Positions 51,638 through 63,067 of a DNA stretch of 64,000 bases are shown here, piece by piece (positions within the stretch are counted from its first letter, which is position 1; each line of letters begins with the position of its first letter). Origin of the DNA: an uncultured delta proteobacterium (GTDB lineage: Bacteria > Desulfobacterota > Binatia > UBA9968); the NCBI GenBank assembly GCA_963727625.1, contig CAVSHR010000005.1, positions 864,001-928,000 of the forward strand, written 5' to 3'. The translations under genes and the position numbers were made by a program. The notes under the pieces are model-generated. The model had not been told where the DNA came from and did no database searches. It was given only the letters and a program-made list of their open reading frames with translations.

Positions 51638-51663
51638 TTTCGGCGGCTCGTTCGGGGGAAAAG

Positions 51664-52080
51664 GAAAAGGGGACTCGAACCTTTTCACATTTGCCTATCT
51701 GTTAATCTCGCGACCTTTCTAGGACGACCGCGAGGCTGAAGTGTGTATCTCAGTCCGAGCGCAACCGCGATCCGAGTCGTCCAATTTTCCGAACCAAAGG
51801 GCGTACCGCGGTTTACGCATCTCCGCAGCGCTTCGGCCTCGGCATCAGTTTGAACTTCGTTCACCCAACCGACCCAAACTTCCGGCCTGTCGCCGCGACC
51901 AGGGTCCGTTTCAAACGCAACATAGTCTTCCCGTTTGGAAAACAGTTCGTTTCGGCCATTCGCCCGATTCAGCGGGTGATAAACCACGCCACCCAGAGCC
52001 ATACGCGCTCGCCGAGGCATGCGCCACGCTCTAATCAAAGGCATCAATTTCGTCAAGGAAAGGTTCGCGTCCCCTTTTTC
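51664..52080 (-). mobile_element. Internally deleted RAYT (Y1/HUH) transposase remnant flanked by inverted REP-like motifs
   Basis: ORF from 52020: MPRRAR...YHPLNRANGR...DYVAF joined to ...RGTPFGS...PRGRPRK; the HUH core is missing. Confidence 0.8.
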
Positions 52081-52089
52081 TTCCCCTTT

Positions 52090-52993
52090 CCGGATGGATC
52101 GTCAAGCCGTATTTGGCCAGTCGCTGCGGCAAGACCGCCAACACCCGCCGTGCGTCTTGTTCATGAGTGAATCCCATGACAAAGTCGTCCGCGTAGCGAA
52201 TGAGAAAGGCCTTACCACGTAAACGCGGCTTAACCACCTGCTCTATCCACTGGTCCAGCACATAGTGCAGGAAGATGTTTGACAGCACAGGTGAAATCAC
52301 TCCGCCTTGGGGAGAACCCGCTTGCGGGTACGTCACTGCGCCGTGTTCGAGAACTCCCGCTCTAAGCCACTTGCCGATCAAACGCCTCAGCACACCATCA
52401 CGCATCCTATGGCCGATCAATCTTCGCAGGTGCGCATGATCCAGAGTGTCGAAAAACTTCCGGATGTCCACTTCCAATATCCAGCCCCCGTGGCTATCCA
52501 TCACTTGTTTCCATAACGACTCAAGCGCCTGGTGCGCCGAACGCCCGGGCCGAAAGCCGAACGAACAGTCATAAAAATCCTGCTCGTAGATCGGCGCCAG
52601 CACCATGGCGACGGCCCGCTGCAGAACCTTGTCCTCCAGCGTCGGTATCCCGATGGGACGCGTATCGGTAGCCGAATTCCCTTTCGGAATGTGTACCCGT
52701 CGCACGGGCGGTGCTCGGTACGTACCGGCTTTGACCCAGCCTAATAGCTCCTCAAGATTACTTTTCAGGTTCGCTTCGTAGTGCTCGGCAGTGATGCCGT
52801 CCACCCCGGCAGCCGCATCCTTGCGCGTGCGCCGGTAGGCCTCCTCTAGCCAGTCGATGTCCATTAGGTGCGCCAGGGAAGTGAATCCCATCTGCGGTGA
52901 CTGCTTGGCCAGCTTTGCTACCCGTTGCTGTTTCGTTGACACGGTACTCGAATTTCTATGCATTCGCCGTCTTTCCCAACAACGGTTCCACAA
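52090..52993 (-). pseudogene. ltrA: Group II intron reverse transcriptase/maturase, truncated
   Basis: [38 protein letters not shown] and RYADD motifs; breaks at LTIHPE; X/thumb domain absent. Confidence 0.9.
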
Positions 52994-53571
52994 TCCGACG
53001 CCTCGCTTCCCTCCACGCGGTCCGGGAGGTCCCGTTCCCGCCTTTCTCAGGTACTATCAAGGCGCTACGACTTGCTGCCGTCCTTTCACGCCGCGCTTGG
53101 TTTCCTTCGCTTGGCGCTGCCACTCGGCGCGCCTTGGGCTTCGCTCCCGCCGTGTCAAAGCGCAACCACGGCGGGCCGGGAGTACTTTATTTTCGGCCAC
53201 TCCTGAGACCGGCTGGATCCGGTGGAGACAACAGCATCTCCCAAGTTCCTGGGAAACCTCCATTGTGCCTATGCCCGGTTCTGCGACTCCGGTGTGACGG
53301 CTCACTCCTCACCCTAACGGTGCGCGCCGCATCGCCCCCGTGAGGGGAACGACGAAGGCTCACAGTTGAAAACTTTCGAAGCTCAATAGCCGGGCCTTGG
53401 CACTCGCTGTCTACGCTTCGCCGCGTGGGTTGCCCCAGCGCAGCGCAAGACTCGCTTCCGGGAGCGGGTTAGGCCTTCCCGGACAGGCTTGTTTACCTGC
53501 AAGGTTTCGCTGAAAGGTTTCAGAGCTGCTTTCTACATCTCTTCCTCCTTTCCCAAGTTTTCTTGGCGCGA
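52090..53571 (-). mobile_element. Group II intron, 3'-truncated (5' ribozyme domains and partial RT ORF)
   Basis: About 580 nt of non-coding leader with intron-like segments (GAAGCGAGTCTTGCG, GCGAAGCGTAGACAG, CCAGGAACTTGGGAG, GATAGTACC) upstream of the RT; no DV/DVI seen. Confidence 0.85.
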
Positions 53572-53844: not shown

Positions 53845-56568
53845 ATGAAGAAGACAAGTAAAAGCTTGGGGCGCACCGGCGAAATAAGTAGTTCAGCTGC
53901 AACTCTATCAGACCGTTTGACCGCTGCCCTAGATCTGCCTAATGGAGCGCGGTTTTACCGCTGTGCATTGCAGATCAACCCGTTTGCGTATTTACATCGG
54001 CATAATAAGAAAACATCCTTCCTCAAAGAAGCCGAATATAATGCGGCTATCATCGCCGCCTGCCAAGAAATTGGAATCGAAGTCATAGGCGTTACGGATC
54101 ATTATCGGGTTGAAGAATCAAAGAGCCTTGTGCAAGCGGCACGAGCCGCCGGCCTGTTCGCCTTCAGCGGCTTTGAGTCTGTAACCAAGGACGGTGTACA
54201 TTTTCTTTGTTTGTTCGATCCTGAGAAGGACAATGCGCTCGAACGTTTTATTGGTGAGTGCGGCGTTCACGACATGGCAGCTGCATCACCAACGGGAGCT
54301 CTCGATTCCATTGAACTCCTTAACCAAGCGAAAGACTGGGGTGCTATTTGCGTGGCCGCACATGTAGCGGGCGAGGGAGGTCTTTTGAACAGGCTCAAGG
54401 GGCAGCCTCGCATCAACGCTTGGAAGTCGCCGGAACTTCTTGCTTGTGCTCTTGCGGGTCCAGTTTCCGATGCCCCTGAGAACATTCGTCCGATCCTTGA
54501 AAACCGAGACTCGCAACACAAGCGTAGTCGACCTGTGGCTGTACTGAACACTTCAGACGTGAACAGCCCCGAGGATCTAAAAAAGAACGGTGCGTCCTGT
54601 TTTCTTAAGATGTCGAATATTTCTGTTGAGGCTCTACGACAAGCCTTTCTTGATCCCGAATCGCGCATTCGCCTACATAGCGATTCTCAAGCGGAGCCTC
54701 ACGCAGAATTTCTGGCTCTGACATGGGAGGGCGGATTCCTCGGGGGCACATCCGTTCATTTCAACGCCAACTTGAACGTCTTGGTTGGCGGTAGAGGAAC
54801 CGGAAAGTCGACCATGGTCGAGAGCATACGCTACGCGCTTGGCCTCGAACCGCTCGGAGAAGACGCGCGTAAGGCCCACGAAGGAGTGATCCGGTACGTA
54901 CTTCGCTCCGGGACGAAAATATCTTTGCTAGTGCAATCGCATAAGCCTTCCGCGCGTTGCTATACCATTGAGCGGTCAATCCCTAATCCACCGATCGTAA
55001 AGGACGAAGCCGGGGAAGTCCTGACGCTCTCGCCGAAAGACGTAATGCCGGGAGTCGAGGTCTTTGGACAACACGAAATATCCGAACTCACCAAAAGCAG
55101 AGAGAAGCTGACGATGCTTCTGGAACGGTTCGTCGACCGCGATCCAACGTTGTTGGGACGAAAATCGAAACTCAAACTGGACCTTCAACGCTCCCGAGGC
55201 CGTATCGTGGATGTTCACCGCGAGATGAAAGCTCTCGACGAACGGCTTGCCGCGCTTCCGGGCTTGGAGGAGACACAGAAACGTTTCCAAGAAGCCGGGC
55301 TTGAAGAACGCCTAAAGGAGAAAAGCCTGCTTATTCGGGAAGAGCGAGTTTTTACGAATGTTACGGAGCGACTTGAACCTGTCCGAGCGCTCCACCGTGA
55401 ATTGGTCGAGTCGTTGCCGCTTGATACTGCCTTCGTTTCTAAAAAAGCTTTGGAGGGACTCCCGAATGCAGCGATTCTAACCGAAATCGGAACGATCTTG
55501 GGCTCCTTGAGTACAAAACTCAAGGCAATTGCCGATCAGCTCGCAAAGGCACTGACAGAAGCGGACAGCTCTGTTGGGGGAACCAAATCCCGGTGGGACA
55601 AGAAACGCAAGGTTATAGAAGAAGTATATGAAAAGCTTCTACGGGAGCTTCAGAAATCGAAGATCGACGGGGCTGAGTTCATCCGGCTACGCAAACAGAT
55701 TGAAGATCTACGTCCTTTGAGAGAAAAAATAGACGCGCTGAAACGTGACCTGGCCAGTCACGAGGCAAACCGCCGCAAGCTGCTCGCGGAATGGGAGGAC
55801 GTCAAGGCGAGTGAGTATCGCGAGTTTGAAAGTGCAGCGAAAAAGGTTTCTCGTCAGCTCCAGGAGCGGGTGCGGGTAGAAGTCGCCATGGCAGGAAATC
55901 GTGAGCCGTTGGAGCAGCTCTTACGTGAGTTGGGTGGAAACTTGAGCGCTGCCTTGGAGCGTCTACGGTCGCTGGGAGAACTTTCGCTGCCGGATTTGGC
56001 GCAGCGCTGCCGGGAGGGCAAGGAGGCTCTGATCAAACAGTATGGACTGCCAGCAGGTTCGGCCGAGAGAATTGCCCAAGCGGACCTAGACTTCTTAATG
56101 AAGATTGAGGAGCTGGACCTTCCGGCGACGACGAAGATTGAATTGAACACTGCGCCGGATGGTGAACCTGCCACGTGGCAGACGTTGGAAGCGCTATCGA
56201 CTGGGCAGAAGGCAACAGCTGTCCTATTACTTCTCTTACTGGAATCGGAAGCTCCTCTTGTGGTCGATCAGCCGGAGGACGACCTCGATAACCGCTTCAT
56301 TACGGAAGGTGTGGTACCAATCATGCGACTGGAAAAGCGGCGGCGTCAGTTTGTGTTTTCAACCCACAATGCGAACATTCCTGTGCTCGGCGATGCCGAG
56401 CTGATTCTGGGCCTGGCCGCATCGGGCGAAGGAAGGGAGGGCCACGCCAAAATCGCTCCCGAACATATGGGATCAATCGACTCCAAACCTGTGCGCGAAC
56501 TGGTAGAAGAAATTCTCGAAGGAGGCAAAGATGCCTTCGAGATGCGCCGTTCCAAATACGGGTTCTGA
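53845..56568 (+). CDS. PHP-domain + coiled-coil ABC ATPase (Ppl/TrlF-like, putative anti-phage protein)
   Basis: N-terminal PHP-like motifs (TDH, GxE, H, AH, SD); Walker A GGRGTGKS; long coiled coil; LSTGQ, VVDQPEDDLD and THN. Confidence 0.85.
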   Translation: MKKTSKSLGRTGEISSSAATLSDRLTAALDLPNGARFYRCALQINPFAYLHRHNKKTSFLKEAEYNAAIIAACQEIGIEVIGVTDHYRVEESKSLVQAARAAGLFAFSGFESVTKDGVHFLCLFDPEKDNALERFIGECGVHDMAAASPTGALDSIELLNQAKDWGAICVAAHVAGEGGLLNRLKGQPRINAWKSPELLACALAGPVSDAPENIRPILENRDSQHKRSRPVAVLNTSDVNSPEDLKKNGASCFLKMSNISVEALRQAFLDPESRIRLHSDSQAEPHAEFLALTWEGGFLGGTSVHFNANLNVLVGGRGTGKSTMVESIRYALGLEPLGEDARKAHEGVIRYVLRSGTKISLLVQSHKPSARCYTIERSIPNPPIVKDEAGEVLTLSPKDVMPGVEVFGQHEISELTKSREKLTMLLERFVDRDPTLLGRKSKLKLDLQRSRGRIVDVHREMKALDERLAALPGLEETQKRFQEAGLEERLKEKSLLIREERVFTNVTERLEPVRALHRELVESLPLDTAFVSKKALEGLPNAAILTEIGTILGSLSTKLKAIADQLAKALTEADSSVGGTKSRWDKKRKVIEEVYEKLLRELQKSKIDGAEFIRLRKQIEDLRPLREKIDALKRDLASHEANRRKLLAEWEDVKASEYREFESAAKKVSRQLQERVRVEVAMAGNREPLEQLLRELGGNLSAALERLRSLGELSLPDLAQRCREGKEALIKQYGLPAGSAERIAQADLDFLMKIEELDLPATTKIELNTAPDGEPATWQTLEALSTGQKATAVLLLLLLESEAPLVVDQPEDDLDNRFITEGVVPIMRLEKRRRQFVFSTHNANIPVLGDAELILGLAASGEGREGHAKIAPEHMGSIDSKPVRELVEEILEGGKDAFEMRRSKYGF

Positions 56569-56571
56569 AAC

Positions 56572-57774
56572 ATGACGACGCATACGGAATTGATGGACAT
56601 CATTGCAAACGGGGAAAGCTCCGGAGTCGAGTTCAAACGAGACGTTCTGCAAAATCATGACCTAGCTAAGGAGCTGGTGGCGTTCTCGAACCTGAGCGGC
56701 GGAGTGGTACTCCTAGGCGTGGATGATGACCGAACCATATCAGGGATCACACGACCCGATCTGGAAGAATGGGTGCTGACCACATGCCGCGACAAGATCA
56801 GACCTAGCATTATTCCTTTTTTTGAGGTTGTTCGAAACATCGAACCAGGAAAAAGTGTCGCCATTGTACGTGTGACGCGCGGCTTCGATGTTCACAGTTT
56901 GTGGCACAACAATCGTAATACCTATTACATACGCGTCGGAACGCAGAGCAGGGAACCGAGCCCGGAGGAGCTCGGCCGACTCTTTCAGCAGCGCGGCTCT
57001 TTCCGCGCGGAACTGCGGCCTGTCTCTGGTGCGACCCTTGCCGATTTGGATCGCCGCCGGCTTCGCGATTATTTCGATCGGATCCGTCAACAGGCAATGC
57101 CTTCTGACGAGGATGAGACGGGTTGGCAAATCCTGTTGGCCAATACAGAGATCATGACTGACGAAGGCGTAACGGTAGGCGGGATGCTCCTGTTTGGTCA
57201 GAGACCTAACCATTTTCTTCCACAGGCCGGCATCGACGCCGCCTCGTTTCCAGGAACTGAAAAGGACTATGCTGCTCGAGAACGGCTCGCTCTCCGTGGT
57301 CCCATGACACCGCTATTTAGCGCTGCAGCGGAACTCGTGGAAAATGGCCTGGTCGAGCAGGCGTTAGACTTTGTACGGCGCAATACACCCGTTACTGCGG
57401 TGCTTGAAAACGGTAGGAGAATCGACAAGCCGACCTATCCGCCTGAAGCACTTCGTGAAGGGGTCGTGAACGCTCTGATTCACCGCGACTACCTTCTTTC
57501 GAGTACGGACATCGAACTGGTTGTATACAGCAATCGGCTAGAGATTATCTCACCAGGCAGGCTACCGAATGGCATTACCCCAGACCGAATGCGCGCGGGA
57601 ACACGCGCAGCCCGAAATCAGCTCTTGAAAGAGGTTATGCGCGACTATCACTATCTAGAACATATGGGAATGGGCGTCCCTCGTAAGATTATTCAGGGGA
57701 TGAAAGCCCATAACAATACCGAACCGGAACTCATTGAAGACCAGGAACGCTTCATTCTTCGCCTGTTCGCTTAA
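56572..57774 (+). CDS. Schlafen/AlbA_2 domain + HATPase_c_4 (RecG C-terminal-like) protein
   Basis: GESSGVEFK, VAFSNLSGG and LLGVDD; REGVVNALIHRDY, SPG, RN and GMG. Confidence 0.9.
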   Translation: MTTHTELMDIIANGESSGVEFKRDVLQNHDLAKELVAFSNLSGGVVLLGVDDDRTISGITRPDLEEWVLTTCRDKIRPSIIPFFEVVRNIEPGKSVAIVRVTRGFDVHSLWHNNRNTYYIRVGTQSREPSPEELGRLFQQRGSFRAELRPVSGATLADLDRRRLRDYFDRIRQQAMPSDEDETGWQILLANTEIMTDEGVTVGGMLLFGQRPNHFLPQAGIDAASFPGTEKDYAARERLALRGPMTPLFSAAAELVENGLVEQALDFVRRNTPVTAVLENGRRIDKPTYPPEALREGVVNALIHRDYLLSSTDIELVVYSNRLEIISPGRLPNGITPDRMRAGTRAARNQLLKEVMRDYHYLEHMGMGVPRKIIQGMKAHNNTEPELIEDQERFILRLFA

Positions 57775-57939: not shown

Positions 57940-58578
57940 TTAAGGTACCTGAGGTGCCACAGGCGTTGGCGTCGTAGGTCCCTTAGGCGTTGGAAACTCA
58001 GGAAGCTTTCTACGAGGGTGATTTAGAACTGTATCAATTATTGTATCGATATTTGATAGGCTCACGAGCAGTTGTGGCCATGCCGCATAGATCGAGTAGA
58101 TATGAAAATTCTTTTCGTCAGCAGCTAAATTCAACCACTCACGGGCTTTGTCAGGGTCAGAATGAAAGACAACGCCATTGAAGAAGAGATTTATAGCGTC
58201 CGCAACAAGCAGTGGCTTGTTGCCCACAAAATAGTGTGATGGACAACTCTTAAGAGTGTTCGTCCAGTTTTGCCTTGCAGCCCTTATCCACGGCAGCAGC
58301 TTTTTATCGATACCTGCCCTTTCAAGTATATTGCACACCCGGTACAGATTGATTTTTTCACGTGGTGCATAGAACTGTCGCAGACTGACTAACGCGGAAC
58401 GAAACTCATCCATCTTAAAATTTTTTATTTTTGATGTGAGCCCGCGGCCAGGTAGTATCTTGATGGAAATTGAAATCGCGTTTTGACGCCTTTTAAATAG
58501 TCGAACCTTGCGAATTATATCCATCTGATTGAGAAATAGTTTCAATGTTTCTTTTTCGCCGGGTGATAACATGATCAA
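57940..58578 (-). CDS. Hypothetical protein, mostly helical, possibly HEPN-like
   Basis: 212-aa ORF with GAGG RBS; AT-rich; NGVVFHSD motif. Confidence 0.7.
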   Translation of the reverse strand: MIMLSPGEKETLKLFLNQMDIIRKVRLFKRRQNAISISIKILPGRGLTSKIKNFKMDEFRSALVSLRQFYAPREKINLYRVCNILERAGIDKKLLPWIRAARQNWTNTLKSCPSHYFVGNKPLLVADAINLFFNGVVFHSDPDKAREWLNLAADEKNFHIYSIYAAWPQLLVSLSNIDTIIDTVLNHPRRKLPEFPTPKGPTTPTPVAPQVP

Positions 58579-58756
58579 AACCTCATAGGAGACTGTGAGA
58601 AAAGGAATTGAACAAACTCACATAAAAAGAAACCCGGGCTCTTTTATCGGTGCTTCTGCAATCGCTTCGATATGCTTTTGCCCGCACCTTGAAATTCGAA
58701 GTGAAGTTTATTGGCAAAACTTAGCCAGAGACAACCGAAATTCCCGATGGTTTTTA

Positions 58757-58874
58757 TGGTGCACGGGACGAGATTCGAACTCGCACGTCCTTTCGGACAC
58801 GTATTTGCAACAAGTTCCGACTGCGATCAGAACCTCTTACAAATACGCGCGTCTGCCGGTTCCGCCACCCGTGC
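58757..58874 (-). ncRNA. tRNA-Leu-like RNA (118 nt) with the anticodon loop replaced by a long hairpin
   Basis: Acceptor stem GCACGGG/CCCGTGC + ACCA; Leu-type D arm GCGGAACCGGCAGACGC; variable arm GTCC-GAAA-GGAC; T loop TTCGAAT; 38 nt between the anticodon stem strands. Confidence 0.88.
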
Positions 58875-58911
58875 ACAATGGAAAAATGATTTTGCCATAT
58901 TTTGCGTGGGC

Positions 58912-59020
58912 AAGGAAAAGGGGACGCAAACCTTTTAGCTCTGCGTATCTGTTAATCCCACAACCTTTTTAGGACGACCGCGGGGTTGCAGTCTATATTT
59001 CACTCCGAGCGCATCCACGA
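58912..59020 (-). mobile_element. Second RAYT 3'-end remnant with REP-like motif
   Basis: Diverged direct copy of ~51661-51770, encoding ...LQPRGRPKKV. Confidence 0.78.
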
Positions 59021-59107
59021 TTATCAACAGATTTTTTTGTTTGAACTCGACGTTCAACTCCTTCGCCAAGACAGTTGCTTGACCGAGACCAAAAAGCCGA
59101 AATCGGA

Positions 59108-60514
59108 CTAAGGCAAGTCCGCGCCTTTCGGCTGATTTTTGAAATTCTCTGGGTTCAAGTTTTGCGTCAGGCGGAAAACGCCTTCCACGACGTGGCGGCG
59201 TAGTTCGACTTCGATCATCAACGTTTGGTTTGGCTCAAAGTATCGCTTGAGCGCGGCGAAAGTGCCTTTGTGTTCGGCCACGGTGTAGTAGGCGAAACCC
59301 TCGGCCGGTCGTGCCGTGATCCGTACGCCAAATTTTCCTGCCAGCTCGGGCTTGCTGAACCAGTCGTTCATCACATCGTAGTCGATATAATAGGTCAGCT
59401 TTCCTGGGCTACGCTGATTGCGCTGGCGATCCACGAAGAAACCGGGAGGCAAATGGTTTGGGTCATAATCCGGTCCCGCAGTGAAGAGCACGTCGTAATC
59501 GGAAAGATTGTTGCCACGGTCATCGATGATCCTAATGACGAGCATGCAGTACCGGTTAGTCACGAAGGTCCGCCTAAAGACGAACAACTGTTTCACCGCT
59601 TGCTTGCGCTCATCTGTTTGAGTCTTTGTCGTGAGATCCTCTAGGTCCTTGACCAGCCGATTGTAAGCCGCAGCACTGCCCACTTCCAGGCAACGCAAAA
59701 CCCACTGCACCGTGGGGTGCGTGCCGTCATCGTCTGCTGTCACGCTGGCGAGGATGCCGATGGTCGTGCCAGAATGAGATCGCCCCGGCAAAACGCCGAG
59801 TGCGGTTTTTGCGCTGCGATCATCCTTTTTCAGCGCGAGGGCGCCATCGGTCTGCACCAGCCGAATCAGGCCGTAGTTCAAGTTTGCCGCAGCGACCCGC
59901 ACGACTCCATCCGACCCCGCCTCATCGGTGTAGGCATTAAGGTTGTCGTAGAAGGCGCGGTCAATCCTCTGCCCTGTGAGAACGAAGGGATACAACCTTG
60001 CAGCCACGCAGTCGTAAGCGAGCCAGTCACGATTGAGTTCCCAGCTTTGGTCGCTGCCCAGCTCCAGCCAGTCGAGAACGCCTGTGCCAGGTTCGACACC
60101 GTCCGCAGAAAACTTCATCCGCGCAATGCGGCCTTTGCCAAGTTGCGCGAGCGCCGAGCCATGATTCGCCGGCGCGAGCATGACCAAGTGTCCGAGTGGA
60201 CACTTGCTGAGTTTGCCACGATAAAACAGGTCTATCCATTTTCGCACCACCGGCCCACCCGTGGAATGCGTCACGCAAGCGAATTTTTCATCCTTGGTGA
60301 GCTTCGGCAGCACCTCCGCGGCGATGGCTCGCTGCATTCCACGCGCGATATCATCGACTTTCACCTCGTCAGCGAAACTCACATATTTGGCGAGGTAGAG
60401 ATGCGTGATCTGAAGATCGAGTTTCGGAGACGCGTTTTTGACAAGTGCGGCAGGCAGACCACCGTAGGTATTCGTGTTGGTAACACTCCAGCCATGAACG
60501 AAGACAATAAGCAT
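59108..60514 (-). CDS. Alpha/beta hydrolase (lipase/phospholipase-like) with C-terminal extension
   Basis: FVHGW, THSTGG nucleophile elbow, APANHGS, SDGVV and SH motifs. Confidence 0.85.
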   Translation of the reverse strand: MLIVFVHGWSVTNTNTYGGLPAALVKNASPKLDLQITHLYLAKYVSFADEVKVDDIARGMQRAIAAEVLPKLTKDEKFACVTHSTGGPVVRKWIDLFYRGKLSKCPLGHLVMLAPANHGSALAQLGKGRIARMKFSADGVEPGTGVLDWLELGSDQSWELNRDWLAYDCVAARLYPFVLTGQRIDRAFYDNLNAYTDEAGSDGVVRVAAANLNYGLIRLVQTDGALALKKDDRSAKTALGVLPGRSHSGTTIGILASVTADDDGTHPTVQWVLRCLEVGSAAAYNRLVKDLEDLTTKTQTDERKQAVKQLFVFRRTFVTNRYCMLVIRIIDDRGNNLSDYDVLFTAGPDYDPNHLPPGFFVDRQRNQRSPGKLTYYIDYDVMNDWFSKPELAGKFGVRITARPAEGFAYYTVAEHKGTFAALKRYFEPNQTLMIEVELRRHVVEGVFRLTQNLNPENFKNQPKGADLP

Positions 60515-60772: not shown

Positions 60773-61073
60773 GCGACGGCAGTCGGCGGCGAACTCATCG
60801 AGCGTGTAAGCCACGCGATTTCTCCTGACGTAATTGGAAATTCAATCAACTTGCGGCCCAACTATTCTGCAGACAACTCCGGAACGTGCTCGTCTTCATA
60901 CTTTTCGATAAGTACGCCGACAATTTCCATAAGCGAAGCGAGAGGGTGCGATTCGTCTTCGCCCACTTCATCGACCAGTCGATCGAGCAAGGAAACCAAT
61001 CTGTCGTATTCAGCTGCGGTGTGGGGGACGAATACCGTGTCGGCCAGCGAAGACCACGCGTTTACGGTTTTGC
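60773..61073. repeat. Diverged ~300-bp direct repeat of 62746-63045
   Basis: Contains a second higA-like ORF, the intergenic gap and the first ~14 codons of the cupin gene. Confidence 0.9.
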
Positions 61074-61092
61074 TATCGTCAAATCCTCGCAT
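60862..61092 (-). CDS. HigA N-terminal-like small protein (duplicate copy)
   Basis: Near-identical to 62834-63064 from KTVNAW onward. Confidence 0.65.
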   Translation of the reverse strand: MRGFDDSKTVNAWSSLADTVFVPHTAAEYDRLVSLLDRLVDEVGEDESHPLASLMEIVGVLIEKYEDEHVPELSAE

Positions 61093-61118
61093 GGGATGTG
61101 CCGGTGGTGTCGACGAGC

Positions 61119-62235: not shown

Positions 62236-62787
62236 TCAGGCGGCGCCGCGAAAGTTGGGGCGTTTCTCCACCACCATGGTACCCGCCTCGCTGTTGTAGC
62301 GGCCGCGCGCGATGTTTTCTAGATTTGTACCCGTGACGCGGATGAAACGCCCGCCGGCGGGGTAGGCGATGGAGTGGATGGCGCGGTTCTGGAAGATACC
62401 GGCCTGGCCGCGCTCCATGCGGTAGCTCTTCGCCTTTTCTATGGTCGCTTTGCCGGGAACCGAGCCGTCATCCGTACGCTTCCACTCGCTCATTTCAGTA
62501 TGTTTGACCGCCTGGCCGTAAATTGCCCAGGAGTCGCCATGATCGTGCGGTCCGCCGGCATAGTCCCGGTCCATGATATGCGCCAGGACCTGGAAGCCTA
62601 GCTCCGGGTCCTCATAGAGTAAATTTGTGCCAACGCTCGCGTTCGGCCCGCAATGGGCGACGACGAAATCCTCGTTCATCAGCAAGTCCTGCAATCTTTT
62701 CCGCACCGTTTCGCGCCCCCCCGGACCTGGGTCGGCCTTGAGGATGCGACGGCAGTCGGCGGCGAACTCATCGAACGTGTAAGCCAT
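62236..62787 (-). CDS. Cysteine dioxygenase-like cupin
   Basis: PHDHG..W and IH motifs forming a three-His pattern. Confidence 0.75.
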   Translation of the reverse strand: MAYTFDEFAADCRRILKADPGPGGRETVRKRLQDLLMNEDFVVAHCGPNASVGTNLLYEDPELGFQVLAHIMDRDYAGGPHDHGDSWAIYGQAVKHTEMSEWKRTDDGSVPGKATIEKAKSYRMERGQAGIFQNRAIHSIAYPAGGRFIRVTGTNLENIARGRYNSEAGTMVVEKRPNFRGAA

Positions 62788-62833
62788 GCTATTTCTCCTG
62801 ACGCATCGGAAATTAAATCAACTTGCGGCCCAG

Positions 62834-63064
62834 CTATTCTGCAGACAACTCCGGAACGTGCTCGTCTTCATACTTTTCGATAAGTACGCCGACAATTTCC
62901 ATAAGCGAAGCGAGAGGGTGCGATTCGTCTTCGCCGACTTCATCGACCAGTCGATCGAGCAAGGAAACCAATCTGTCGTATTCAGCTTCGGTGTGGGAAA
63001 CGAAAAGGGTGTCGGCCAGTGAAGACCACGCGTTTACGGTTTTGCCAACATCGAGATTCTGCAT
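62834..63064 (-). CDS. HigA-like antitoxin N-terminal domain (no HTH)
   Basis: EAEYD...LASLMEIVGVLIEKYE; directly downstream of higB. Confidence 0.75.
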   Translation of the reverse strand: MQNLDVGKTVNAWSSLADTLFVSHTEAEYDRLVSLLDRLVDEVGEDESHPLASLMEIVGVLIEKYEDEHVPELSAE

Positions 63065-63067
63065 GGA

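What the first reader, a model, noticed from the sequence alone, without database searches (positions are those of the whole stretch)
58757..58874. tRNA-Leu mimic whose anticodon loop is replaced by a 22-position RNA helix
Seen: a perfect 7-bp acceptor stem, encoded CCA, A73, Leu-type D loop with A14/A15/G18G19, U48, a 4-bp GAAA-capped variable arm and a canonical T loop. The anticodon arm is CGUAUUUGUAAGAGGUUCUGAU-CGCA-GUCGGAACUUGUUGCAAAUACG: 17 Watson-Crick pairs, 4 G-U pairs, 1 G-G mismatch and a 4-nt loop, 31 nt longer than normal. Four of the five non-WC positions are G-U on the tRNA strand, which suggests selection on RNA structure. Known: bacterial LeuRS relies on A73 and tertiary shape, not the anticodon. 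Inference: a chargeable but non-decoding RNA. It could be a decoy or regulator for tRNA-targeting nucleases (a Schlafen-domain gene lies ~1 kb away), an aminoacyl donor or an RNA antitoxin. Removing 31 nt at position 37/38 would give a GUA (Tyr) anticodon on a Leu body, but no bulge-helix-bulge motif is present. This is the best candidate for an undescribed system.
Basis: partly seen in the sequence, partly recalled or inferred. Interest (0 to 1): 0.9.

Follow-up and report, generated by a model that had tools for sequence, protein, structure and literature searches.

The report
Orphan leucine tRNA with hairpin anticodon arm
A one-of-a-kind gene in a soil bacterium looks like a complete leucine tRNA, but its anticodon loop is replaced by a long double-stranded hairpin, so it probably cannot read codons; no relative was found, so its role is unknown.

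Summary
On the minus strand at 58757-58874 lies a 118-nt class II tRNA-Leu-type gene. It has a perfect acceptor stem, A73, an encoded CCA, a Leu-type D arm, a GAAA-capped variable arm and a canonical T arm. Its anticodon arm is one continuous helix of 22 positions capped by CGCA, much more stable on the tRNA-sense strand than on the antisense strand.

It is not a genome-wide repeat, a group I intron or a bulge-helix-bulge intron. No 31-nt excision restores a leucine anticodon.

No homologue turned up in any search:
- same-genus, class and phylum genomes
- a pattern scan of 185,579 species genomes
- viral contigs, phages and plasmids
- the one retrievable locus of each neighbouring gene's relatives

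Covariation therefore cannot be tested, and no "system" is supported.

My best reading (about 0.45) is a horizontally acquired, stable, probably leucylatable but non-decoding tRNA-scaffolded hairpin RNA. A young decaying pseudo-tRNA is the main rival (about 0.33).

Side finding: uncultured viral contigs carry many anticodon-less Leu-type tRNA-like genes, with a constant scaffold and an unrelated 45-75-nt middle.

The parts
58757..58874 (-). 118-nt tRNA-Leu-type gene with a hairpin in place of the anticodon loop. RNA position p corresponds to window 58875-p.
   Evidence: Rfam tRNA 38.2 bits; ARAGORN with introns; cloverleaf fold z=-5.5
58868..58874 (-). Acceptor stem 5' strand, GCACGGG (RNA 1-7)
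   Evidence: Pairs 7 of 7 Watson-Crick with 58761-58767
58849..58865 (-). Leu-type D arm: 3-bp stem and 11-nt loop with A14, A15, G18G19 and A20a
   Evidence: Same length and register as the genome's five tRNA-Leu genes; 23 of 24 identical to Leu-GAG over RNA 5-28
58800..58847 (-). Anticodon arm as one 22-position helix plus CGCA tetraloop (RNA 28-75). The outer 5 bp are the normal anticodon stem.
   Evidence: -26.1 kcal/mol, z=-7.7 on the sense strand against -10.3 on the antisense strand; 17 WC, 4 GU, 1 GG
58805..58842 (-). The 38 nt that replace the 7-nt anticodon loop: 17-position helix extension and tetraloop (loop at 58822-58825)
   Evidence: Single copy in the genome. All eight possible 31-nt excisions give Ala, Asp or Tyr anticodons, none Leu.
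58787..58798 (-). Variable arm: 4 bp with a GAAA loop
58768..58784 (-). T arm: 5-bp stem (one G-U) and UUCGAAU loop
58757..58767 (-). Acceptor 3' strand CCCGUGC, discriminator A73 and encoded CCA
58915..59021 (-). 3'-terminal fragment of a multi-copy gene end. I recall it as resembling the C-terminus of IS200/RAYT-type transposase genes. It ends about 40 nt upstream of the tRNA-like 5' end. This is context, not part of the RNA.
   Evidence: Four other copies in G000 at 82-84% identity. Near-identical contigs from runs X1 and X3 stop matching at 58909.
57940..58578 (-). Downstream co-oriented 212-aa ORF (P0001) of a tiny family of unknown function, in low-GC DNA. Linkage to the RNA is not supported.
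   Evidence: 6 proteins in the family; no Pfam, PADLOC or NCBIfam hit; no fold match at E<=0.001; the homologous locus L163 has no tRNA-like gene
59108..60514 (-). Upstream co-oriented 468-aa alpha/beta-hydrolase-like ORF (P0002). Its DUF7379 match is weak and below Pfam's cut-off. Linkage to the RNA is not supported.
   Evidence: The 85%-identical orthologue in G044 sits in unrelated flanks with no tRNA-like gene.

Best explanation
This is a horizontally acquired derivative of a class II tRNA-Leu gene. Its 7-nt anticodon loop has been replaced by a 17-position helix extension and a tetraloop.

Inferred steps, none shown:
- The transcript should fold into a normal tRNA 'top half' (acceptor, T and D arms and elbow) and variable arm.
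- It should therefore be matured like a tRNA (RNase P at the 5' end; CCA is encoded), and be stable.
- It very probably is accepted by LeuRS, because it carries every known bacterial leucine determinant and those lie outside the anticodon arm.
- It cannot decode, because it has no anticodon loop and its arm is about 17 bp too long for the ribosomal A site.

The most likely working principle is a natural 'tRNA scaffold' that displays a 22-bp double-stranded RNA helix. The helix would be a binding site or substrate for a dsRNA-recognising protein such as RNase III. Alternatively, the whole molecule would act as a sponge or decoy for proteins that recognise the tRNA-Leu body. What it regulates is unknown.
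For: Shown:
1. All tRNA body stems are intact: 23 WC and 1 GU of 24 pairs. The tertiary and identity nucleotides U8, A14, A15-U48, G18G19, A20a, the UUCGAAU loop and A73 are present.
2. The new helix stacks directly on the anticodon stem, with no unpaired junction nucleotides.
3. 4 of 5 non-Watson-Crick positions are G-U on the tRNA-sense strand, so 21 of 22 positions pair as RNA. Sense folds at -26.1 and antisense at -10.3 kcal/mol. The genome-wide hairpin scan lists the arm only on the sense strand. If transitions were unbiased, 4 of 4 falling as G-U has a chance of 1/16 (my arithmetic).
4. If the extension began as a perfect palindrome, it has taken 5 changes in 34 nt. The same rate predicts about 7 changes in the 48 stem nucleotides of the body, where at most 1 is seen (Poisson P=0.007). 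That implies purifying selection on the body after the hairpin arose.
5. No 31-nt excision regenerates a Leu anticodon, so this is not simply a working tRNA-Leu hit by an insertion.
6. The insert is single-copy.

From the literature: A73 and the tertiary core define bacterial leucine identity, tRNA-Leu variants without the anticodon and variable arms are still charged (PMC9976931 passages), and the anticodon arm is dispensable for aminoacylation (PMC2377443 abstract).

Context: uncultured viral contigs hold at least 96 distinct Leu-type tRNA-like genes without an anticodon arm. This shows that Leu-type top halves carrying non-tRNA middles recur in nature. They are not homologous to this gene.
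Against: - It is a single sequence from a single assembly, and no independent sample covers it.
- No homologue with a long arm was found in any of these: 40 relatives by BLAST (the hits in 10 genomes, 11 loci, were all normal tRNA-Leu-GAG); 150 genomes of the class with covariance model R1 at E<=1e-15; 400 other genomes of the phylum by pattern; 37 loci from the scan of 185,579 species genomes with GTTCGAATCNNNNCCCGTGCACCA; viral contigs; phages and plasmids.
- Covariation therefore cannot be assessed. The selection argument in point 4 rests on an unproven starting state.
- The simple scan found no sigma-70-like promoter or intrinsic terminator.
- The gene lies in low-GC mosaic DNA beside a transposase-gene fragment and other strain-specific genes, where decaying genes are common.
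- The relatives of both neighbouring genes that I could fetch lack it (1 of 1 for each).
Confidence: 0.45

Rival explanations
1. A young pseudo-tRNA. A tRNA-Leu gene carried in on mobile DNA had its anticodon loop destroyed by an insertion or replacement with an already imperfect hairpin. It has no function and simply has not yet decayed.
For: - Orphan status in every search.
- Low-GC mosaic neighbourhood with a transposase-gene fragment 40 nt upstream, a group II intron and no synteny with relatives.
- A near-identical strain diverges at 58909, which suggests recent rearrangement.
- No recognisable promoter or terminator.
- The genome already has all five Leu isoacceptors.
Against: - The hairpin is imperfect while the body is flawless, so the rival needs a foreign, already imperfect hairpin of unknown source.
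- That hairpin is not repeated anywhere in the genome.
- It replaced the loop exactly, so that the helix is continuous.
- The non-WC positions are biased towards G-U on the RNA-sense strand.
Confidence: 0.33
2. The 48-bp dyad is a DNA-level element, such as a recombinase or repressor site, or a hairpin that forms in single-stranded DNA. It happens to sit in, or was built on, the symmetric anticodon stem of a tRNA gene. The RNA is irrelevant.
For: - Near-perfect dyad symmetry of 22+4+22 bp.
- Anticodon stem-loops are known integration targets (recalled, no call).
- Mobile-element debris lies nearby.
Against: - No tyrosine integrase (0 of 16 hits) and no serine recombinase (0 of 2 hits) lies on contig C5.
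- There is no second copy or half-site elsewhere in the genome.
- The mismatches are strand-asymmetric, which duplex DNA recognition does not explain, although a single-stranded DNA hairpin on that strand would.
- An intact tRNA body and encoded CCA are unnecessary for a DNA site.
Confidence: 0.08
3. A real intron-bearing tRNA. The 31 nt are removed by an unknown bacterial pathway (for example cleavage of the helix followed by ligation), giving an 87-nt tRNA with a Leu body and a GUA, GUC or UGC anticodon.
For: - ARAGORN's intron mode fits an 87-nt tRNA plus a 31-nt intron.
- Every possible 31-nt excision leaves a 7-nt loop with U33 and A37.
- RtcB ligase is encoded elsewhere in the genome.
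- The acceptor stem and A73 equal those of tRNA-Tyr(GTA) in 29 of the 37 loci returned by the species-genome scan.
Against: - There is no bulge-helix-bulge; the helix is continuous.
- No EndA-type splicing endonuclease is found in a 98%-complete genome, while the control rings in 4 archaea.
- 31 nt cannot be a group I ribozyme, there is no Rfam intron hit here, and there is no similarity to the genome's real group I intron.
- The product would put Leu at Tyr, Asp or Ala codons.
- A normal tRNA-Tyr exists.
Confidence: 0.05
4. An assembly or sequencing artefact, that is, a spurious fold-back inside a real tRNA-Leu gene.
For: No independent run covers 58803-58895. The genome has 6.3% estimated contamination.
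Against: - Fold-back artefacts give perfect palindromes, and this one has 5 non-WC positions.
- Removing it does not restore a Leu anticodon.
- The contig is 1.1 Mb long.
Confidence: 0.03

Closest known systems
Canonical bacterial class II tRNA-Leu
   Same: 7-bp acceptor, A73, CCA, Leu-type D arm (A14, A15, G18G19, A20a), U48, long variable arm and T loop. The nearest in the same genome is Leu-GAG.
   Different: It has no 7-nt anticodon loop and no Leu anticodon, and its arm has 22 positions instead of 5 bp. The review passages I read say natural anticodon stems have 5 bp, or 6 in Sec, Pyl, allo-tRNAs and some mitochondrial tRNAs (PMC7609411).
tRNA-Other, the pseudo-tRNA of Bacillus cereus (PMC3399842; abstract and outline read)
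   Same: A tRNA-derived gene in or beside a genomic island that does not serve translation and may have been recruited as a tRNA-like element of a regulatory RNA.
   Different: No sequence relation was tested. According to that abstract, tRNA-Other is part of longer transcripts. A helix replacing the anticodon loop is not mentioned there.
Engineered 'tRNA scaffold' for recombinant RNA (PMC3753655: search listing and start of abstract only; the design details are recalled)
   Same: The anticodon region of a tRNA is replaced by a cargo RNA, so that the chimera is processed and stabilised like a tRNA.
   Different: That is a laboratory design. This would be a natural counterpart with a plain helix as cargo.
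Intron-bearing pre-tRNAs of archaea and eukaryotes (PMC4090602: listing and start of abstract only)
   Same: Extra nucleotides in the anticodon loop region that extend the anticodon helix. The 37/38 position is one possible cut.
   Different: No bulge-helix-bulge, no EndA in the genome, and the spliced anticodon would not match the body.
Bacterial Y RNAs such as YrlA (PMC4201824: listing and start of abstract only)
   Same: A non-coding RNA that mimics a tRNA and also has a long helix.
   Different: As I recall, in Y RNAs the 5' and 3' ends form the long stem and the RNA partners with Ro60. Here the ends form the acceptor stem with CCA, and the genome has no TROVE/Ro60 gene.
Anticodon-less Leu-type tRNA-like genes of uncultured viral contigs
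   Same: Leu-type D arm, T arm, 7-bp acceptor and A73, with a non-anticodon middle.
   Different: Their middle is 45-75 nt, replaces the variable arm as well, is often pseudoknotted and differs between genes. They encode no CCA. 0 of 99 viral loci match the candidate's covariance model at E<=1e-8.

Membership tests
Decoding bacterial tRNA-Leu | 7-bp acceptor stem, discriminator A73, 3' CCA | tested here: met
Decoding bacterial tRNA-Leu | LeuRS determinants outside the anticodon: A15-U48, G18G19, A20a and tertiary core (list taken from PMC9976931 passages) | tested here: met
   Read from the sequence, in register with the genome's own five tRNA-Leu genes. Charging itself was not tested.
Decoding bacterial tRNA-Leu | 5-bp anticodon stem, 7-nt loop and a Leu anticodon | tested here: not met
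   22-position helix with a CGCA loop. No excision yields a Leu anticodon. Default ARAGORN finds nothing.
tRNA with a protein-spliced (bulge-helix-bulge) intron | Bulge-helix-bulge at the exon-intron junctions | tested here: not met
   The helix is continuous with a single G-G mismatch
tRNA with a protein-spliced (bulge-helix-bulge) intron | Splicing endonuclease (EndA, PF01974) in the genome | tested here: not met
   0 hits in G000 (98.45% complete). The control rings in 4 archaea.
tRNA with a group I intron | Catalytic core matching Rfam Intron_gpI | tested here: not met
   No hit at this place, and the insert is only 31-38 nt. The same genome's tRNA-Asn intron scores 86.7 bits. The insert shows no similarity to it.
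REP / MITE-type palindromic repeat inserted in a gene | Several copies of the palindrome in the genome | tested here: not met
   blastn-short of the arm and of the insert against all 15 contigs finds only the gene itself. The next best hits are 15 nt for the arm (E=0.18) and 13 nt for the insert.
Bacterial Y RNA (YrlA type) | A Ro60/TROVE partner gene, and 5'/3' ends that form the long stem | tested here: not met
   No TROVE match in G000. The ends form the acceptor stem.
tmRNA | tRNA-Ala-like domain (G3-U70) with a tag reading frame | tested here: not met
   ARAGORN reports no tmRNA in the window. Positions 3-70 are A-U.
Island-borne pseudo-tRNA recruited as a tRNA-like RNA element (tRNA-Other type) | tRNA-derived, in strain-specific or foreign DNA, and not used in translation | tested here: inconclusive
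   The foreign, mosaic context is met. Non-decoding is inferred from the structure. Expression and any function could not be tested: no RNA run was listed.
   Model R1 matches 0 of 99 viral loci at E<=1e-8. The longest outer helix run among their middles is 8 bp, against 11 for the candidate by the same measure.

The most novel reading that the evidence does not exclude
Bacteria and their viruses may naturally use the Leu-type tRNA top half as a scaffold to make stable non-decoding RNAs that carry other structured 'cargo'. This top half is recognised by RNase P, by LeuRS and perhaps by EF-Tu without any need for the anticodon. On this reading the window's gene would be a chromosomal example whose cargo is a 22-bp dsRNA helix. 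It would act in the surrounding defence island as a leucylatable decoy or sponge, or as a dsRNA ligand. The hypervariable-middle genes in viral contigs would be the viral side of the same practice.
Probability: 0.12. Interest if true: 0.8.

Novelty: new variant of a known kind. Interest (0 to 1): 0.4.

Why it matters
If the RNA is made and stable, it would be a natural precedent for the engineered tRNA scaffold. It would also be a tRNA-shaped molecule that can probably be charged yet cannot translate. That raises the question of what a cell does with a dedicated non-ribosomal Leu-tRNA look-alike, or with a tRNA-borne dsRNA helix, in a defence-gene neighbourhood.

There is a practical point too. 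Default ARAGORN and Rfam's filtered gathering scan both miss the gene, so such genes are a blind spot of routine annotation.

If it is only a decaying gene, it is a curiosity. As it stands, with one sequence and no relatives, it cannot carry the weight of an 'undescribed system'.

Tried and rejected
Homologue searches that found nothing with a long arm:
- BLAST of 58700-58930 against 40 relatives. The hits in 10 genomes (11 loci) are all ordinary 87-nt tRNA-Leu(GAG).
- The Leu-type D-arm / T-loop pattern with a 50-80-nt gap in 401 genomes of the phylum. Only G000 itself matched.
- Covariance model R1. It scores 146.9 bits on itself and 53-74.5 bits on three of the genome's own normal Leu tRNAs. 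0 of 150 other genomes of the class matched at E<=1e-15, and 0 of 99 viral loci at E<=1e-8.
- The species-genome scan with the T loop plus acceptor 3' strand plus CCA returned 37 loci: 29 normal tRNA-Tyr(GTA), 2 Leu(TAG), 2 Lys, 1 Arg, 1 Glu, 1 odd 130-nt tRNA-like (L161), and 1 with no gene found. This pattern fixes the acceptor sequence, so relatives with another acceptor stem would be missed.
- The same pattern and a 21-nt piece of the hairpin in viral contigs gave 0 and 0.
- blastn against phages and plasmids matched only the variable and T arms of normal tRNAs.

Linkage to neighbouring genes:
- The P0001 family has only 6 proteins. The single metagenome scan returned one locus (L163, 71% identity) with no tRNA-like gene.
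- The hydrolase orthologue in G044 and four glyoxalase orthologue loci show no synteny and no tRNA.

Expression: no RNA holder was listed.

Read laying: the contigs laid from X1-X4 do not cover 58803-58895. The pieces on 58756-58800 belong to ordinary tRNA-Leu genes of other organisms.

Rejected ideas:
- Group I intron remnant.
- REP/MITE repeat.
- Y RNA.
- Island attachment site next to an integrase: none lies on contig C5.
- Coding antisense ORFs 58595-58972 and 58711-58938: no Pfam family.

P0001: the model has mean pLDDT 71.5, and 0 solved-structure matches at E<=0.001.

Literature: searches found no description of a natural bacterial tRNA whose anticodon loop is replaced by a long helix, and none of the viral set. 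This covers only the held library. A search for 'TrlF' gave nothing relevant. Supplementary files were not requested.

G005, flagged as unpublished, is one of the same-genus genomes counted as negative; no other claim rests on it.
Full report
WHAT IS THERE

The feature lies on the minus strand at window 58757-58874, which is contig C5:922757-922874 of a 6.6-Mb, 15-contig genome with 57% G+C.

Routine tools miss it. Default ARAGORN finds no tRNA in the window. The Rfam gathering scan reports only a group II intron domain at 53277-53492.

More permissive settings find it.
- A sensitive Rfam scan of 58500-59100 gives the tRNA model at 38.2 bits (gathering score 29, E=1.7e-6). The whole model is matched and 33 nt are inserted in the anticodon loop.

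The 118-nt RNA folds into a cloverleaf at -57.6 kcal/mol, against -38.1 +/- 3.6 for 200 dinucleotide shuffles. None of the shuffles does as well.

THE ANATOMY

- a 7 of 7 Watson-Crick acceptor stem, A73 and an encoded CCA
- a 3-bp D stem with an 11-nt loop holding A14, A15, G18G19 and A20a
- a 4-bp variable arm with a GAAA loop, followed by G-U (U48)
- a 5-bp T stem with the loop UUCGAAU

The body is Leu type. Its D arm has the length and register of the genome's five tRNA-Leu genes and is unlike the genome's tRNA-Tyr. The best other match in the genome is 23 of 24 identical to tRNA-Leu(GAG).

Between the two strands of a normal 5-bp anticodon stem lie 38 nt that form 17 more helix positions and a CGCA loop. 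Counted by script, the extension has 12 Watson-Crick pairs, 4 G-U and one G-G. The tRNA body has 23 Watson-Crick pairs and 1 G-U out of 24.

The arm alone folds at -26.1 kcal/mol (z=-7.7) as sense RNA and at only -10.3 as antisense RNA. A scan of the whole genome for hairpins of at least 18 pairs lists this arm among about six longest distinct ones, and only on the sense strand.

WHAT IT IS NOT

- Not a repeat. Neither the arm nor the insert has a second copy in the genome; the best other hits are 15 nt and 13 nt.
- Not a group I intron. There is no Rfam intron match here. The genome's real group I intron, in tRNA-Asn (86.7 bits), shows no similarity to the insert.
- Not a bulge-helix-bulge intron. 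The helix is continuous, and the genome has no EndA-type endonuclease, while the control search rings in four archaea. RtcB is present but is common in bacteria.
- Not a working tRNA-Leu with a simple insertion. All eight ways of removing 31 contiguous nucleotides leave a well-formed loop (U33, A37), but with anticodon UGC or GGC (Ala), GUC (Asp) or GUA (Tyr), never Leu. A spliced product would therefore be a mis-sense tRNA.
- Not needed for decoding. The genome already has all five Leu isoacceptors and a normal tRNA-Tyr.
- Not a Y RNA or a tmRNA. No TROVE gene is found, the ends form the acceptor stem, and ARAGORN reports no tmRNA.

SURROUNDINGS

The gene sits in a 530-nt gap between two ORFs on the same strand.
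- Upstream is a 468-aa alpha/beta-hydrolase-like protein (59108-60514). Its DUF7379 match is weak and below Pfam's cut-off.
- Downstream is a 212-aa protein of unknown function (57940-58578). It has no family in Pfam, PADLOC or NCBIfam. The whole family has 6 proteins, and a moderate-confidence model has no solved-structure match at E<=0.001.

On the other strand, ending 983 nt from the tRNA 3' end, is an operon-like pair.
- A TrlF-family PHP+AAA ATPase (53845-56568), which scores 502 bits against the NCBIfam equivalog cut-off of 350.
- A Schlafen/AlbA_2 + HATPase_c_4 protein (56572-57774). By sequence it matches only an uncharacterised solved structure.

The stretch 58000-58999 has 44% G+C, against about 57% for the genome.

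About 40 nt upstream of the tRNA 5' end, 58915-59021 is the 3' fragment of a gene end that occurs four more times in the genome at 82-84% identity. I recall this C-terminus as typical of IS200/RAYT-type transposase genes; no call confirmed that.

A near-identical contig from run X1 matches 58909-59123 and then runs on into unrelated sequence. A contig from run X3 ends at the same point. At least one close strain therefore has something else to the left of 58909. This is weak evidence, because the contigs are short and of low depth.

No tyrosine integrase or serine recombinase lies on this 1.1-Mb contig. The simple scan found no promoter or terminator.

RELATIVES

I found none with a long arm. 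The searches are listed under Tried and rejected. In short:
- 40 relatives by BLAST
- 30 same-genus genomes with the 5.7-kb neighbourhood
- 400 other genomes of the phylum by pattern
- 150 other genomes of the class by covariance model
- a fixed-acceptor pattern over 185,579 species genomes
- viral contigs, phages and plasmids

The neighbours do not travel with it.
- The one retrievable P0001 relative (71% identity) lies next to a large serine recombinase, with no tRNA-like gene within 4 kb upstream or 2.6 kb downstream.
- The 85%-identical hydrolase orthologue in another species of the genus has unrelated flanks and no tRNA.

The reach of these searches is limited.

HOW IT MOST LIKELY WORKS

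What is shown is the structure.

What is inferred rests on the literature and on two arguments from the sequence.
- The passages I read in the tRNA identity review state that A73, A15-U48, G18G19 and A20a define leucine identity in E. coli. They add that neither the anticodon nor the variable arm matters, and that tRNA-Leu variants lacking both arms are still charged (PMC9976931).
- The Aquifex study's abstract says the anticodon arm is dispensable for aminoacylation but needed for editing (PMC2377443).
- The candidate has all these determinants, so it is probably leucylatable. With no loop and 17 extra helix positions it cannot decode.
- Two features argue for selection on the RNA rather than neutral decay. 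First, 4 of 5 imperfect positions are G-U on the sense strand. Second, the body stems are flawless while the extension is imperfect. If the extension began perfect, the same rate of change predicts about 7 hits in the body stems, where at most 1 is seen (P=0.007). The second argument depends on that assumed starting state.

I therefore favour, at about 0.45, a stable non-decoding tRNA-scaffolded helix RNA with an unknown partner. A young pseudo-tRNA is at about 0.33. The remaining weight goes to a DNA-level dyad element, a spliced intron and an artefact.

COMPARISON WITH WHAT IS KNOWN

The review of non-canonical tRNAs gives 5 bp as the conserved anticodon stem length, with 6 bp in Sec, Pyl, allo-tRNAs and some mitochondrial tRNAs (PMC7609411 passages). 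A 22-position arm lies outside that range.

Conceptually the closest cases are:
- the island-borne pseudo-tRNA tRNA-Other of Bacillus cereus, which does not work in translation and was proposed to serve as a tRNA-like element of a regulatory RNA (PMC3399842 abstract)
- the engineered tRNA scaffold (recalled; only the listing of PMC3753655 was seen)

It is a member of neither. I file it as a new variant of the known kind 'tRNA-derived non-decoding RNA'.

SIDE FINDING: ANTICODON-LESS tRNA-LIKE GENES IN VIRAL CONTIGS

What these genes share:
- a 7-bp acceptor, a Leu-type D arm, a T arm and A73, with no encoded CCA
- a middle of 45-75 nt

The middle is not an anticodon arm.
- Only 2 of 96 middles begin with a 5-bp stem and 7-nt loop.
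- Only 5 of 96 contain such an arm anywhere, against 4.2 expected from shuffles.

The scaffold is constant and the middle is not. Among the 32 sequences that share the acceptor strand AGTCAGG, the scaffold is 96% identical at the median. The middles are 54% identical, the same as shuffled middles at 53%.

Other observations on this set:
- Two related middles (L019 and L025) keep an H-type pseudoknot through six compensatory pairs. I read this by eye from the sequences printed.
- 32 of 113 sites have a canonical tRNA within 1 kb.
- Of 15 loci scanned with Rfam, 12 long genes scored 31-41 bits on the tRNA model.
- They do not match the candidate's covariance model, and I found no description of them in the held library.

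They show that Leu-type top halves with non-tRNA middles recur in nature. That modestly raises the prior for a functional reading of the window's gene, but it is not evidence of homology.

VERDICT

Interest is moderate (0.4) because everything rests on one unreplicated sequence with no relatives and no expression data.

Noticed in passing
Viral contig loci L013-L125 (for example L019:6535-6622, L041:2261-2338, L051:2405-2510): At least 96 distinct Leu-type tRNA-like genes: 7-bp acceptor, Leu-type D arm, T arm, A73, no CCA. The anticodon and variable arms are replaced by a 45-75-nt middle. The scaffold is nearly constant (median 96% identity among the 32 with acceptor AGTCAGG), while the middles are as unlike as shuffled sequence (54% against 53%). 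Some middles form covarying pseudoknots. No description was found in the held library.
   Followed up: partly
G000:C2:43006-43342 (outside the window; locus L171:207-543): The only tRNA-Asn(GTT) gene detected in the genome is interrupted by a group I intron of about 261 nt (Rfam Intron_gpI, 86.7 bits). Default ARAGORN finds no tRNA-Asn at all.
   Followed up: partly
window 58915-59021 and 51661-51771; also G000:C5:480944-481049, C6:637-745 and C6:141821-141929: A multi-copy element of about 107 nt at 82-84% identity. It is the 3' end of a gene whose C-terminus I recall as IS200/RAYT-like, followed by a conserved AAAAGG...CCTTTT hairpin. The copy next to the tRNA-like gene is only a fragment.
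   Followed up: partly
window 60773-61094 and 62746-63066: Two copies of a 322-nt repeat at 93% identity within the window. Shorter matches to its first 80 nt or so occur in several genomes of the genus.
   Followed up: no
window 53845-57774 (+): An operon-like pair: a TrlF-family PHP+AAA ATPase (distantly like the Ppl anti-phage protein) followed after 3 nt by a Schlafen/AlbA_2 + HATPase_c_4 protein. It looks like a candidate two-gene defence module.
   Followed up: partly
window 52031-53492 (-): A group II intron: Rfam D1-D4 domain at 53277-53492 (131.7 bits) and a reverse-transcriptase ORF of only 320 aa at 52031-52993, which may be truncated.
   Followed up: no
L161:1229-1358 (-) (JAUQOW010000167.1, Chloroflexota MAG): A 130-nt tRNA-like gene in an array with tRNA-Phe, Val and Leu. 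It has the same acceptor stem GCACGGG and CCA, and about 55 extra nucleotides between the D and T arms (Rfam tRNA, 45.8 bits).
   Followed up: partly
Loci L126-L162: The candidate's acceptor stem, A73 and CCA are identical to those of tRNA-Tyr(GTA) in 29 of the 37 loci returned by the scan, mostly Dehalococcoidia/Chloroflexota and some CPR genomes. The candidate also has GUA at the anticodon position of its 5' arm. This may be coincidence.
   Followed up: no
window 57940-58578 (-) and L163:3989-4618: A family of only six proteins of about 200 aa with an invariant SCPSHY motif, no Pfam family and no fold match. The one other locus seen has it next to a 613-aa large serine recombinase, so it seems to ride on mobile DNA.
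   Followed up: partly
G000:C2:816645-816863 and C5:334737-334801 (outside the window): Very long palindromes elsewhere in the genome. One has arms of about 108 bp, and one is a perfect hairpin of 31 bp.
   Followed up: no
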